A stretch of DNA of 8,400 nt, taken from IMG/VR virus record IMGVR_UViG_2778261349_000002, positions 1 through 8,400 of that record, one strand, 5' to 3'. Below the pieces are notes generated by a model. The model saw only the letters and a list, made by a program, of their open reading frames with translations, searched no databases and was not told the DNA's origin. The position numbers and the translations under genes were made by a program. Positions 5,808 to 6,660 of the stretch are shown here, in pieces. Numbering within the stretch: position 1 is the first letter of the stretch; each line of letters starts with the position of its first letter. Origin of the DNA: a virus. Lineage: Duplodnaviria > Heunggongvirae > Uroviricota > Caudoviricetes.

Positions 5808-6179
5808 ATGGAAACAAAAGAGATTCGGCGTTTACGCCTCAAAGAGTGGTTCAAAGACAGGACTTTGCCGCCTAAAGAGAAAAGTTACTTATCTCAGTTA
5901 ATGAGCGGTAAAGCTACGTTTGGCGAAAAGGCAGCTAGACGTATTGAACAAACATATGGGATGCCTGGGGGATATCTTGATATTGAACCAGAAGACATAA
6001 CAGAGTCTCCATCATCAAGATCTATAGCATTAACCCCTAACCAATTAGAATTGCTACAAATATTTAGTGCTTTCCCTGATAATGAGCAGCAGGAGATCAT
6101 AAAAGAACTAAAAAACAAAAAAGAGGCTATGGAAGATCTTGTCGCACGTTGGTTGGCACGACAAGGTCGCCGAGCCTGA
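5808..6179 (+). CDS. CI-position HTH (XRE-type) repressor, 123 aa; C-terminal domain paralogous to the downstream PaaR-like regulator
   Basis: N-terminal HTH (SYLSQLMSGKATFGEKAARRIEQTYGMP). Divergent from the cro-like gene. No LexA-like peptidase domain. C-terminus TPNQLELLQIFSAFPDNEQQEIIKELKNKKEAMEDLVARWLARQ. Confidence 0.7.
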   Translation: METKEIRRLRLKEWFKDRTLPPKEKSYLSQLMSGKATFGEKAARRIEQTYGMPGGYLDIEPEDITESPSSRSIALTPNQLELLQIFSAFPDNEQQEIIKELKNKKEAMEDLVARWLARQGRRA

Positions 6180-6198
6180 CGGGATATATAGATATCAG

Positions 6199-6660
6199 AT
6201 GGGCGTACTCGAAATTAGTGCTCTTAGAATTAAGATGCTTCTGTTGGCAAAAGGCTGGAGCCAAGCAGAACTTGCGCGCAGAATTGGTATTGCTCAACAA
6301 TCCGTGCAACGGTGGGTTTGTGGTATCTCAAGCCCTACGGCAGCTAATCTAGATAAACTATCTGAAGTAACGGGACTTCCTCAGTATTGGTTTTTCTTAC
6401 CATTAAATGAAGAAAAAAAAGACAGGGCACAGGATATATTAAAAATAACCCCTAATCAAAAGGAACTACTTCAAACATTTGAGGCATTTCCAGAGGAAGA
6501 TCAACAGCAAATGCTTAAAGATATGAAGGAGAAAAAAGAAGCAATGGATCGTATAGTTGCAAGGTGGTTAGCAGCACAACAAAAAGTCAACCAAGCAGAA
6601 TACCAGCACTTACAAAACGAGGTTCACCATGAACACAACCCTTTCACCGATGGTTTCTGA
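6199..6660 (+). CDS. paaR: PaaR-like HTH transcriptional regulator, first gene of a three-component ParE-type TA operon (153 aa from ATG 6199; track start 6139 is a TTG)
   Basis: HTH (WSQAELARRIGIAQQSVQRWVCG). C-terminus TPNQKELLQTFEAFPEEDQQQMLKDMKEKKEAMDRIVARWLAAQ. Its 3' end overlaps the antitoxin start by 32 nt. Identification by context and memory of the paaR-paaA-parE systems described in E. coli O157:H7. Confidence 0.65.
   Translation: MGVLEISALRIKMLLLAKGWSQAELARRIGIAQQSVQRWVCGISSPTAANLDKLSEVTGLPQYWFFLPLNEEKKDRAQDILKITPNQKELLQTFEAFPEEDQQQMLKDMKEKKEAMDRIVARWLAAQQKVNQAEYQHLQNEVHHEHNPFTDGF

What the first reader, a model, noticed from the sequence alone, without database searches (positions are those of the whole stretch)
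5808..6660. CI-position repressor and the TA-operon regulator are tandem paralogues sharing a C-terminal domain but with different HTH domains
The two consecutive plus-strand regulators share a highly similar C-terminal segment of about 45 aa (TPNQ-ELLQ-F-AFP---QQ---K--K-KKEAM---VARWLA-Q), while their N-terminal HTH domains differ. One occupies the CI position, divergent from cro, with a leaderless-type promoter; the other heads the paaA-parE operon. If the shared domain mediates oligomerisation, the two could form hetero-oligomers, linking lysogeny control to toxin-antitoxin expression. Alternatively the TA regulator arose by duplication of the prophage repressor, or the reverse. I am not aware of this coupling having been described, but cannot check.
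Basis: partly seen in the sequence, partly recalled or inferred. Interest (0 to 1): 0.7.

Follow-up and report, generated by a model that had tools for sequence, protein, structure and literature searches.

The report
Two prophage repressors in tandem
An E. coli lambda-like prophage carries two related repressor genes side by side ahead of its toxin-antitoxin pair: its own PaaR2-type immunity repressor plus a second repressor captured from a differently immune relative. This is a rare variant of an already described system.

Summary
ORF1 (5808-6179) and ORF2 (6199-6660) share a C-terminal domain (28/47 aa; BLASTP E=9e-19; shuffle z=26). Their N-terminal domains are unrelated (z=0.8).

The labels need correcting. 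ORF1 is the orthologue of PaaR2 of prophage CP-933P, the published CI analogue that heads paaR2-paaA2-parE2 (PMC8630535). Coupling of lysogeny control to toxin-antitoxin expression is therefore already known. ORF1 has PaaR2's leaderless-type promoter geometry, and matching operator blocks lie at PR and PL.

ORF2 is the HTH_3-type member of the same family, related to DicA. Where I examined that type elsewhere, it is the only repressor. Here the whole gene sits between ORF1's stop codon and paaA, with no predicted promoter, no Shine-Dalgarno sequence and no recognisable operators of its own.

The pair arose by acquisition, not local duplication: the shared segments are 65% identical in DNA, and each is closer to its own allele class. 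The tandem occurs in 17 of 5426 complete E. coli genomes, as one lineage with at least five variants. ORF2's DNA-binding domain is under purifying selection (dN/dS 0.05-0.19), while its C-terminal tail is unstable.

My best reading is a four-gene PRM operon with an extra repressor that supplies a second DNA-binding specificity. Hetero-oligomers remain possible and untested.

The parts
4995..5420 (-). ydaT-like gene, the CII analogue
   Evidence: Pfam YdaT_toxin, E=3.2e-10. RefSeq annotates it as 'toxin YdaT family protein'. The CII-like role is shown for the CP-933P homologue in PMC8630535 and PMC9986795.
5424..5705 (-). ydaS-like gene, the Cro analogue, divergent from ORF1
   Evidence: Pfam YdaS_toxin, E=1.3e-9. 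The protein accession (WP_021577226.1) is the same as in the ORF1-only loci L006/L007.
5706..5807 (.). OR-like intergenic region (102 bp). PR lies on the - strand: -35 TTGACT at 5768-5763, -10 TAAACT at 5744-5739. The PRM-like promoter for ORF1 has -35 TTGCTT at 5773-5778, a 17-nt spacer, -10 GATAAT at 5796-5801, then 6 nt to the ATG at 5808.
   Evidence: PR was found by the consensus scan. PRM was read from the sequence and is conserved with the CP-933P-type loci L005/L008, where 5' RACE placed the transcript start on the ATG. The region differs by only 2 nt from the ORF1-only locus L006.
5808..6179 (+). ORF1, the PaaR2 orthologue and resident CI-type immunity repressor (123 aa). N-terminal domain aa 1-62 (5808-5993); disordered linker; C-terminal domain aa 75-123 (6030-6176).
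   Evidence: It is 72-74% identical over its full length to PaaR2-type proteins P0004/P0005/P0006. The N-terminal domain matches PDB 7nkv/8c3k/8c3l. The AF2 model shows an HTH domain, a low-confidence linker at 64-72, then helix 77-86 and a long helix 91-120. dN/dS is 0.02-0.06 in the C-terminal domain.
6180..6198 (+). ORF1-ORF2 spacer. It is 19 nt here and 30-34 nt in the other tandem lineages; this lineage carries a 15-nt deletion.
   Evidence: Alignment of the tandem loci. No promoter hit. Pairing with the anti-Shine-Dalgarno sequence is only -4.1 kcal/mol.
6199..6660 (+). ORF2, a second PaaR/DicA-family repressor of the HTH_3 type (153 aa). N-terminal domain aa 1-68 (6199-6402); C-terminal domain aa 83-128 (6445-6582); lineage-specific read-through tail (6583-6660) that overlaps the paaA start.
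   Evidence: Pfam HTH_3. It is 67-70% identical to the closest 132-aa relatives found; the sole-repressor loci examined (L002-L004) are 31-33% identical in a seven-sequence alignment that includes ORF1-type proteins. DicA comparison gives E=2e-15. dN/dS of the N-terminal domain is 0.05-0.19. The tail varies between lineages.
6629..6820 (+). paaA antitoxin gene
   Evidence: Pfam PaaA2, E=1.1e-20. The Shine-Dalgarno pairing is -6.6 kcal/mol.
6821..7108 (+). parE toxin gene
   Evidence: Pfam ParE_toxin, E=1.2e-16.
7131..7148 (+). terminator-like hairpin at the end of the ORF1-ORF2-paaA-parE unit
   Evidence: Consensus scan. This is a pattern match only; the count of such sites is no higher than in shuffled sequence.
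7178..7207 (+). PL-like promoter and OL operators. The -35 TTGACT and -10 TAAACT are identical to those of PR.
   Evidence: A 30-nt inverted repeat links 5739-5768 and 7178-7207 at 83% complementarity (pair I1). The block is the same as in the ORF1-only locus L006, and it parallels PL933P in PMC8630535.

Best explanation
The window holds the immunity region of a CP-933P/Rac/Qin-like lambdoid prophage of E. coli. Its PRM-type operon has four genes: ORF1, ORF2, paaA and parE.

ORF1 is the orthologue of PaaR2, a non-cleavable CI analogue. By homology it represses the divergent ydaS-ydaT (cro/cII-like) promoter PR and the distal PL through the shared operator blocks at 5739-5768 and 7178-7207. It is probably made from a leaderless transcript.

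ORF2 is a complete second repressor of the same family, but of the HTH_3 type that in the single-repressor loci I examined is the sole CI-position repressor. Recombination with a heteroimmune relative inserted it as a roughly 0.45-kb cassette between ORF1's stop codon and the first codons of paaA. It lost its own promoter and operator region, and is now an internal cistron of the resident repressor's operon.

Three observations shape the functional reading. ORF2's DNA-binding domain has stayed under purifying selection through several diverged tandem lineages. Its C-terminal domain is less constrained, and its extreme C-terminus keeps changing. No cognate operators are present in cis.

I therefore infer that ORF2 supplies a second, trans-acting DNA-binding specificity. 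The most likely form is repression of incoming or co-resident phages that carry HTH_3-type operators, which would be a second immunity.

Shown here: homology, gene architecture, origin by acquisition, rarity, and selective constraint. Inferred: ORF1's targets, ORF2's expression by read-through or translational coupling, and ORF2's function.
For: ORF1 is PaaR2-like:
- N-terminal domain E=1.8e-31 to PDB 7nkv/8c3k, Foldseek TM 0.92.
- 72-74% full-length identity to MQKKE... PaaR2-type proteins. The N-terminus MQKKE was sequenced in PMC8630535.

Same switch layout as CP-933P:
- Divergent ydaS/ydaT.
- PR and PL have identical hexamers and share a 30-nt operator block.
- The -10 GATAAT lies 6 nt from the ATG, as in CP-933P-type loci.

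ORF2 belongs to a type that normally stands alone:
- L002, L003 and L004 each have one HTH_3-type repressor followed by paaA-parE.
- L097/L098 show a third, 166-aa N-terminal type in the same layout.
- ORF1-type singles are L005-L008.
- The CP-933P-type paaR2 gene is present in 593 of 5426 genomes.

Insertion geometry:
- Tandem and ORF1-only loci are collinear up to ORF1's stop and again from the paaA ribosome-binding site.
- The rest of paaA, parE and OL is closer to ORF1-type loci than to HTH_3-type loci.

Acquisition, not duplication:
- The shared segments are 91/141 nt identical, with 19/47 third positions identical.
- ORF2's segment is 111/141 identical to L002; ORF1's is 125/141 identical to L006.

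Single lineage, rare:
- 17 genomes carry the ORF2 allele at 88% DNA identity or more, all with ORF1.
- In IMG/VR, 10 of the 80 loci kept that carry the domain are tandem, all of this same pair.
- The next-closest ORF2 relative in 5.8 billion proteins is 70% identical.

Constraint: ORF2 N-terminal domain dN/dS 0.05-0.19, Fisher p from 7e-4 to 3e-7. ORF2 C-terminal domain 0.16-0.40. ORF1 C-terminal domain 0.02-0.06.

No own expression signals or operators.

The recognition helix AQQSVQRW is nearly identical to that of the L002-type repressor, AQQSVQKW. The L002-type OR and OL share the motif CACTTT.AAAGTG.
Against: - No phage or prophage was found with ORF2's exact N-terminal allele as its own repressor, so no cognate operator is known. 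The similarity to L002-type recognition helices is suggestive only.
- ORF2 lacks a Shine-Dalgarno sequence and may be poorly translated.
- Pairwise dN/dS among four or five lineages is not independent. Part of the divergence could have been imported by recombination from unsampled single-copy alleles; GF60's C-terminal domain looks recombinant.
- The loss of the family-typical ...RRA C-terminus and the variable tail could instead mark early decay.
- ORF1's operator binding, the leaderless start and the terminator all rest on homology or pattern matches, not on data from this element.
Confidence: 0.6

Rival explanations
1. Hetero-oligomer model. ORF1 and ORF2 co-assemble through their homologous C-terminal domains. 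The mixed oligomers would change the cooperativity or looping of the resident repressor, or would bridge two operator specificities. That would tune the lysis-lysogeny switch and paaA-parE transcription.
For: - The C-terminal domains are 60% identical.
- Both are predicted as a short helix, a loop and a long helix.
- PaaR2 forms octamers in solution (PMC8630535, citing De Bruyn 2019).
- Both genes are in one operon, so the proteins are made together.
Against: - No interaction could be modelled or measured here.
- ORF2's C-terminal domain is the less constrained part of the protein (dN/dS 0.16-0.40, against 0.05-0.19 for its N-terminal domain). Its C-terminal tail differs in five lineages. A conserved assembly interface would not be expected to behave this way.
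- Mixed oligomers with only half the cognate DNA-binding domains would more likely weaken repression.
Confidence: 0.2
2. Passenger model. ORF2 has no function of its own. It persists because it lies between PRM and an addictive toxin-antitoxin pair, so deletions or polar mutations that lower antitoxin expression are counter-selected.
For: - There is no promoter, no Shine-Dalgarno sequence and no cognate operator.
- The conserved ...RRA terminus is lost and the tail is unstable.
- The module is addictive in CP-933P (PMC8630535).
- Frameshifted copies exist in databases (L012, L079, L099).
Against: - Polarity would select against nonsense and frameshift changes but not against missense changes. 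Yet the DNA-binding domain has dN/dS 0.05-0.19 at dS 0.25-0.5.
- In L099 the frameshifts are indels confined to homopolymer runs in otherwise identical sequence, so they are probably sequencing errors. L012 and L079 were not examined in that detail, though L012's single missing base also falls in a G run.
Confidence: 0.13
3. Separate-regulator model. ORF1 controls only lysogeny, and ORF2 is the dedicated regulator heading its own ORF2-paaA-parE operon from an internal promoter.
For: - In single-repressor loci the HTH_3-type protein does sit directly before paaA-parE.
- A remnant of an A/T-rich -10-like sequence (TAAAAA / CTAAAA) lies upstream of ORF2 in some tandem lineages.
Against: - In those single loci the repressor is the CI-position gene with OR and OL operators, not a TA-specific regulator.
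- The scan found no promoter-like site upstream of ORF2.
- The remnant is deleted in this window's lineage.
- No repeated operator-like motif surrounds ORF2.
Confidence: 0.05
4. Local tandem duplication of one repressor gene, followed by replacement or divergence of one N-terminal domain.
For: The two genes are adjacent, on the same strand, and share a C-terminal domain.
Against: - The shared segments are only 65% identical in DNA, with 40% identity at third codon positions.
- Each copy is much closer to single-copy alleles in other prophages (79% and 89%) than to its neighbour.
- The ORF2-paaA junction (MNTT/MNTA start) is of the HTH_3-type lineage.
Confidence: 0.02

Closest known systems
paaR2-paaA2-parE2 / ydaS-ydaT immunity region of cryptic prophage CP-933P (E. 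coli O157:H7; Hallez 2010; Jurenas 2021, PMC8630535)
   Same: - Same gene order and orientation.
- ORF1 is 72-74% identical to PaaR2, including the N-terminal domain solved in PDB 7nkv/8c3k.
- Same -10-to-ATG geometry as the leaderless paaR2.
- PR and PL have identical hexamers and shared operators.
- paaA and parE follow in the same transcription unit.
- No S24 peptidase domain.
   Different: CP-933P and all other PaaR2-type loci examined have one repressor. Here a second, complete repressor with a different HTH domain lies between paaR and paaA. ORF1 is also a distinct allele (about 72% DNA identity), with operators that differ in sequence from those of CP-933P.
DicA, the CI-like repressor of the Qin prophage of E. 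coli K-12, and the HTH_3-type 'helix-turn-helix domain-containing protein' repressors that precede paaA-parE in other lambdoid prophages
   Same: ORF2 has the same architecture: HTH_3, a linker, then the LxxxQxELLxxFxAFPxxxQ... C-terminal domain. BLASTP to DicA gives E=2e-15 over 115 aa. The closest 132-aa HTH_3-type proteins are 67-70% identical, and this type is the sole repressor in loci L002-L004.
   Different: Those proteins occupy the CI position next to their own operators and, by sequence, have leaderless-type starts. ORF2 is second in the operon, has no operators nearby, and has lost the conserved ...(K/G)RRA C-terminus.
Lambda CI / 434 / P22 C2 heteroimmune repressors: a variable N-terminal DNA-binding domain on a conserved C-terminal oligomerisation domain
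   Same: Same evolutionary logic. The C-terminal oligomerisation module is conserved while the DNA-binding domain defines immunity. ORF1's N-terminal domain even occurs fused to an S24 peptidase domain in other Enterobacterales (P0032, P0036, P0042).
   Different: The C-terminal domain here is a small helical domain of about 50 aa, not an S24 peptidase, so no RecA-dependent self-cleavage is expected. Lambdoid phages are not known to carry two such repressors in one PRM operon (my knowledge; one literature search found none).
Gifsy-type short prophage repressors (GfoR/GtgR family) inactivated by LexA-controlled antirepressors (PMC3121763)
   Same: They are small, non-cleavable CI analogues of about 130-150 aa. 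That paper lists DicA and RacR as members of the group.
   Different: No antirepressor was looked for or found in the window. The relationship to Gifsy repressors was not tested here.

Membership tests
PaaR2-type prophage repressor (CI analogue of CP-933P) | N-terminal DNA-binding domain homologous to the PaaR2 N-terminal domain (PDB 7nkv, 8c3k, 8c3l) | tested here: met
   Met for ORF1: E=1.8e-31, about 90% identity over residues 1-62; Foldseek TM 0.92. Not met for ORF2: the two N-terminal domains compare at shuffle z=0.8.
PaaR2-type prophage repressor (CI analogue of CP-933P) | C-terminal domain homologous to that of PaaR2 | tested here: met
   In the alignment of the C-terminal segments, ORF1 is 74% and ORF2 57% identical to the reference row. 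Both proteins hit phrog_5736 best.
PaaR2-type prophage repressor (CI analogue of CP-933P) | CI position: divergent from ydaS-ydaT across a roughly 100-bp operator region, with a matching operator and promoter block (PL/OL) downstream of the operon | tested here: met
   ORF1: 102-bp intergenic region. PR and PL hexamers are identical, and a 30-nt block is shared. ORF2 is not adjacent to any operator block.
PaaR2-type prophage repressor (CI analogue of CP-933P) | Leaderless transcript, with the transcription start on the A of the ATG | not testable with these tools
   The sequence geometry is the same as in CP-933P: -10 GATAAT, 6 nt, then ATG. The transcription start itself needs 5' RACE.
PaaR2-type prophage repressor (CI analogue of CP-933P) | Co-transcribed with paaA (PaaA2 family) and parE | tested here: inconclusive
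   The genes are present, on the same strand and tightly spaced or overlapping. No internal promoter is predicted and a terminator-like hairpin follows parE. Co-transcription was not measured.
PaaR2-type prophage repressor (CI analogue of CP-933P) | Octamerisation in solution | not testable with these tools
   Only monomer AF2 models were possible.
DicA-like / HTH_3-type PaaR repressors | Pfam HTH_3 N-terminal domain plus the shared C-terminal domain, in a protein of about 132-135 aa | tested here: met
   ORF2: HTH_3 E=6.5e-13. DicA comparison E=2e-15 over 115 aa. The closest 132-aa members are 67-70% identical. ORF2 is 153 aa because the stop codon was lost.
DicA-like / HTH_3-type PaaR repressors | Sole CI-position repressor flanked by its own OR and OL operators | tested here: not met
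   ORF2 is the second cistron. The OR and OL in the window are those of the ORF1-only locus L006. No L002-type or 434-like operator motifs are present.
Lambda CI / LexA S24 self-cleaving repressors | C-terminal S24 peptidase domain (PF00717) with an Ala-Gly cleavage site | tested here: not met
   Neither ORF has a PF00717 hit, and both are only 123 and 153 aa long. Relatives of ORF1's N-terminal domain that do carry PF00717 are about 210 aa.
Recent local tandem gene duplication | The two copies are each other's closest relatives at the DNA level | tested here: not met
   ORF1 against ORF2 shared segment: 91/141 nt. ORF2 against L002: 111/141. ORF1 against L006: 125/141.

The most novel reading that the evidence does not exclude
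The two co-expressed repressors form mixed oligomers through their 60%-identical C-terminal domains. This would create a dual-specificity repressor assembly. Such an assembly could bridge the resident operators and the operators of a heteroimmune phage, or it could set the switch threshold and toxin-antitoxin transcription according to the ORF1:ORF2 ratio. If so, this would be a natural case of paralogous CI-type repressors evolving either cross-talk or insulation within one operon. A 250-aa protein elsewhere (P0156, locus L103) fuses the N-terminal domain of a third repressor type in frame to a complete HTH_3-type repressor. That hints that joining two specificities has happened more than once.
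Probability: 0.2. Interest if true: 0.65.

Novelty: new variant of a known kind. Interest (0 to 1): 0.42.

Why it matters
The paaR2-paaA2-parE2 locus is a studied model in which a toxin-antitoxin pair is wired into a lambda-like bistable switch. This variant adds a second family member with a different DNA-binding domain to the same operon.

If ORF2 gives a second immunity, it is a compact example of a prophage widening the set of phages it excludes by capturing a rival's repressor.

If the two proteins co-assemble, it is a natural test bed for how paralogous oligomeric repressors avoid or exploit cross-talk.

The analysis also defines a small C-terminal domain that has no Pfam model. PaaR2, DicA and at least three N-terminal repressor types share it, and PaaR2's own N-terminal domain can alternatively be joined to an S24 peptidase. 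That is useful for annotating the many 'hypothetical' CI-position genes in enterobacterial prophages.

None of this overturns current understanding.

Tried and rejected
1. Operators for ORF2. I searched for L002-type motifs (CACTTT.AAAGTG and variants, up to 2 mismatches) and for 434-like ACA[AC]-N5-9-[GT]TGT palindromes. There are none in the immunity region. Two chance-level hits fall inside unrelated coding regions at 4275 and 8206. ACAAAATTCATTGT lies 27 nt upstream of dicB in every locus examined that includes dicB (L001, L002, L003, L006, L011), whatever its immunity type, so it is not ORF2-specific.

2. Near-palindrome GATATATAGATATC in the ORF1-ORF2 spacer (about 6184-6196). It results from a 15-nt deletion specific to this lineage and is not conserved, so I rejected it as an operator.

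3. Pfam and PADLOC. There is no model for the shared C-terminal domain or for ORF1. ORF2's PADLOC hits are generic HTH matches.

4. Survey of one genome per species. The first alignment was too diverse to search with. The second returned only 2 loci, both single, so this was uninformative.

5. HMMER search of 1.84 billion representatives with ORF1's C-terminal domain. It returned only 11 clusters at E<=1e-3. A 52-aa query is too short for reach.

6. Foldseek of the ORF1 model against the PDB. Only the N-terminal domain found partners, so there is no structural precedent for the C-terminal domain.

7. Rfam over the whole window. The only match was sok.

8. Frameshifted copies (L012, L079, L099) as evidence of decay. 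In L099 the indels lie only in homopolymer runs of otherwise identical sequence, so I treated them as probable sequencing errors. L012 and L079 were not checked in that detail.

9. Whether ORF2 corresponds to PaaR1 of CP-933M. I did not resolve this, because Hallez 2010 is not in the held library.

10. A heterodimer structure model was not possible.
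Full report
**What is in the window**

The window is 100% identical to the chromosome of E. coli strain 00-3076. It lies inside a lambdoid prophage whose integrase gene sits next to potC.

Around the finding, the layout is as follows:
- ydaT-like gene, 4995-5420, minus strand
- ydaS/cro-like gene, 5424-5705, minus strand
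- a 102-bp intergenic region
- ORF1, 5808-6179, plus strand
- ORF2, 6199-6660, plus strand
- paaA, 6629-6820
- parE, 6821-7108
- a terminator-like hairpin, 7131-7148
- a promoter-like site, 7178-7207, reading towards a DUF1391 gene

**Check of the observation**

ORF1 and ORF2 align over 77 residues at 39% identity, E=9e-19. The Smith-Waterman score is 26 standard deviations above 2000 shuffles. The two N-terminal domains alone are indistinguishable from shuffles, at z=0.8. The core shared segment is 28/47 residues identical.

No Pfam model covers the shared domain. PHROGs places both proteins in phrog_5736. AlphaFold2 predicts the same plan for both: an HTH domain, a disordered linker, then a short helix, a loop and a long helix.

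**Identity of ORF1**

ORF1 residues 1-62 are about 90% identical to PDB chains 7nkv, 8c3k and 8c3l. The structure search names these as the PaaR2 N-terminal domain, with TM 0.92. Over its full length, ORF1 is 72-74% identical to proteins starting MQKKEIRRL.... That is the N-terminus sequenced for PaaR2 of CP-933P (PMC8630535).

That paper shows the following:
- PaaR2 is the CI analogue of the prophage.
- It is translated from a leaderless transcript.
- It binds the region between paaR2 and ydaS, and a second PL-type promoter.
- It octamerises in solution.
- It lacks the peptidase motif for RecA-mediated cleavage.
- It heads the paaR2-paaA2-parE2 operon.

The window has the same design. The -10 GATAAT (5796-5801) lies 6 nt before the ATG, exactly as in CP-933P-type loci. 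PR and PL have identical -35 and -10 hexamers and share a 30-nt block.

So the 'CI-position repressor' is itself the known TA-operon regulator. The link between lysogeny control and TA expression is published.

**Identity of ORF2**

ORF2 has a Pfam HTH_3 domain followed by the shared C-terminal domain. The closest proteins outside the tandem lineage are 67-70% identical, 132 aa long, and occur in E. coli, Salmonella, Klebsiella, Raoultella and Sodalis.

In the three such loci I examined (L002-L004), this type is the only repressor. It sits divergent from ydaS-ydaT and directly before paaA-parE. Each has its own operator motif repeated at OR and OL. By sequence, they have leaderless-type starts: a TAAAAT or TAGAAT -10 lies 6-7 nt before the ATG, with no Shine-Dalgarno sequence.

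DicA of the K-12 Qin prophage has the same architecture. BLASTP gives E=2e-15 to ORF2 and E=6e-9 to ORF1 through the C-terminal domain.

A third type, 166 aa, with another N-terminal domain and the same C-terminal domain, also precedes paaA-parE. ORF1's N-terminal domain in turn occurs fused to an S24 peptidase in 200-213-aa LexA/CI-like proteins.

The shared C-terminal domain is therefore a family-wide module combined with interchangeable DNA-binding domains. This follows the usual logic of heteroimmune lambdoid repressors.

**How the tandem arose**

Alignment of six tandem loci with ORF1-only loci shows collinearity through ORF1's stop codon, and again from the paaA ribosome-binding site. 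The whole ORF2 gene is the only extra DNA.

Several observations bear on the donor and the recipient:
- OR and OL in tandem loci are those of the ORF1-only locus L006; OR differs by only 2 nt. The cro protein accession is even identical.
- Downstream of roughly the first 90 nt of paaA, the sequence is closer to ORF1-type loci than to HTH_3-type loci.
- The C-terminal-domain-coding segments of ORF1 and ORF2 are only 65% identical, with 40% identity at third codon positions. ORF2's segment is 79% identical to L002, and ORF1's is 89% identical to L006.

This excludes a recent local duplication. It points to capture of a repressor gene from a heteroimmune relative. The right crossover lay in the conserved start of paaA, and the left junction was illegitimate, falling just after ORF1's stop.

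**Distribution**

- ORF1's allele occurs in 19 of 5426 complete E. coli genomes. Of these, 17 are tandem and 2 are ORF1-only.
- The CP-933P-type paaR2 gene is in 593 genomes.
- ORF2-like DNA matches occur in 195 genomes. Apart from the 17 tandem genomes they are at 77% identity or less, and many cover only part of the query.
- Of the 80 IMG/VR loci kept that carry the C-terminal domain, 10 are tandem, and all are this same ORF1+ORF2 pair.
- ORF2's N-terminal allele was found only in tandem context. The contexts checked were P0066-P0068 and L009-L013.

The tandem module sits beside different replication genes in different strains. It therefore travels as a unit in mosaic prophages.

**Is ORF2 maintained?**

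Among tandem lineages, dS reaches 0.25-0.5.
- ORF2's N-terminal domain has dN/dS 0.05-0.19 (Fisher p from 7e-4 to 3e-7).
- ORF2's C-terminal domain has dN/dS 0.16-0.40.
- ORF1's C-terminal domain has dN/dS 0.02-0.06.

The family-typical terminus ...(K/G)RRA is kept by ORF1 but not by ORF2. ORF2's end differs in five lineages:
- ...KGHRA
- ...QQKVT
- ...QQKVTWADLLALTR
- two read-through tails of 23 residues that overlap paaA

Frameshifted database copies exist. In L099 the indels are confined to homopolymer runs of otherwise identical sequence, so they are probably sequencing errors.

The constraint on the DNA-binding domain argues that ORF2 is a working DNA-binding protein, not a passenger. 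There are caveats: the pairwise comparisons are few and not independent, and recombination may have contributed.

**Expression and targets**

No sigma-70-like site precedes ORF2. Its upstream region pairs poorly with the anti-Shine-Dalgarno sequence, at -0.7 to -4.1 kcal/mol, against -5.8 to -10.8 for paaA and parE. An A/T-rich remnant upstream of ORF2 in other lineages is deleted in this one. ORF2 is thus most simply an internal cistron, read from ORF1's promoter and translated by coupling or weak initiation. This is inference.

No operators attributable to ORF2 exist in the window. Its recognition helix (AQQSVQRW) is almost that of the L002-type repressor (AQQSVQKW). The QQS motif of the 434 repressor's recognition helix is conserved in the alignment. 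A trans target on L002-like phages is therefore plausible, but unproven.

**Verdict**

The finding is a real and rare variant of the known PaaR2/PaaA2/ParE2 immunity-TA module. It is a four-gene operon with two heterologous repressors of one family.

I rate the architecture and origin as well supported. I rate the function of ORF2 (a second immunity specificity) as the most likely of several options.

An independent protein, P0156 (locus L103), fuses a third-type N-terminal domain to a complete HTH_3-type repressor. This shows that such joinings recur, although it rests on a single contig.

Noticed in passing
L103 3001-3753 (protein P0156, Logan contig SRR34266833_149): A 250-aa protein in the CI position. 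Residues 11-103 are 69% identical to the N-terminal domain of the 166-aa PaaR type (P0155). Residues 121-246 are 48% identical to essentially all of ORF2 (HTH_3 plus C-terminal domain). Two repressor DNA-binding modules are thus joined in one reading frame. This is an event independent of the tandem, seen on a single contig.
   Followed up: partly
window 6583-6660, and the equivalent regions of L009-L013 and L100: ORF2's extreme C-terminus differs in five tandem lineages. In this window it reads through a lost stop codon for 23 extra residues, overlapping the paaA start by 32 nt. Single-copy relatives and ORF1 keep a conserved ...(K/G)RRA end. The role of that conserved end is unknown.
   Followed up: partly
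window 7210-7385: A stretch of about 175 nt between the PL-like promoter and the DUF1391 gene is 86-100% identical to the ORF1-only locus L006 and to all three HTH_3-type single loci, whose operators and repressors differ. It is less conserved in some other loci. It may be a conserved leader, nut-like element or RNA. Rfam gave no match at gathering threshold.
   Followed up: partly
window 6030-6043 and 6446-6458 versus 7268-7281: The start of each C-terminal-domain-coding segment (TTAACCCCTAACCA and TAACCCCTAATCA) is 93% and 85% complementary to TGGTCAGGGGTTAA in the conserved leader after PL. This may be chance.
   Followed up: no
window 618-942, minus strand: A hok/sok type I toxin-antitoxin locus. 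Rfam sok matches at 768-942 (113 bits), and a Hok-family ORF ends at 618. RefSeq annotates it as a Hok/Gef family protein.
   Followed up: partly
window 7652-8167, minus strand: A 171-aa ORF of unknown function (phrog_1244, E=1.2e-57; no Pfam or PADLOC hit). It has two Cys-x2-Cys motifs and lies between the DUF1391 gene and dicB. Other loci carry different genes at this position, so it may be accessory cargo.
   Followed up: partly
L001 11370 (outside the window, about 270 nt past its end); also L002 5322, L003 5748, L006 4264, L011 5018: The palindrome-like sequence ACAAAATTCATTGT lies 27 nt upstream of the dicB start codon in every locus examined that includes dicB, whatever its immunity type.
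   Followed up: no
proteins P0032, P0036, P0042 and about 20 others: The PaaR2-type N-terminal domain, for which Pfam has no model, also occurs fused to an S24 peptidase domain in 200-213-aa LexA/CI-like proteins of Yersinia, Martelella and others. One DNA-binding domain is therefore used in both SOS-cleavable and non-cleavable repressors.
   Followed up: partly
window 6180-6198: This lineage has a 15-nt deletion in the ORF1-ORF2 spacer relative to the other tandem lineages. It removes an A/T-rich -10-like remnant and a weak AAGAG Shine-Dalgarno-like element, and it creates the near-palindrome GATATATAGATATC.
   Followed up: partly
L012 2501-2871, L079 2279-2928, L099 948-1591: These database copies of the tandem have frameshifts in ORF1, ORF2 or both. 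In L099 the differences from GF60 are indels in G5, A6, T4 and A7 homopolymer runs only, so they are probably sequencing errors rather than pseudogenes. The 90%-identity cluster holding the truncated protein P0150 has 198 member sequences.
   Followed up: partly
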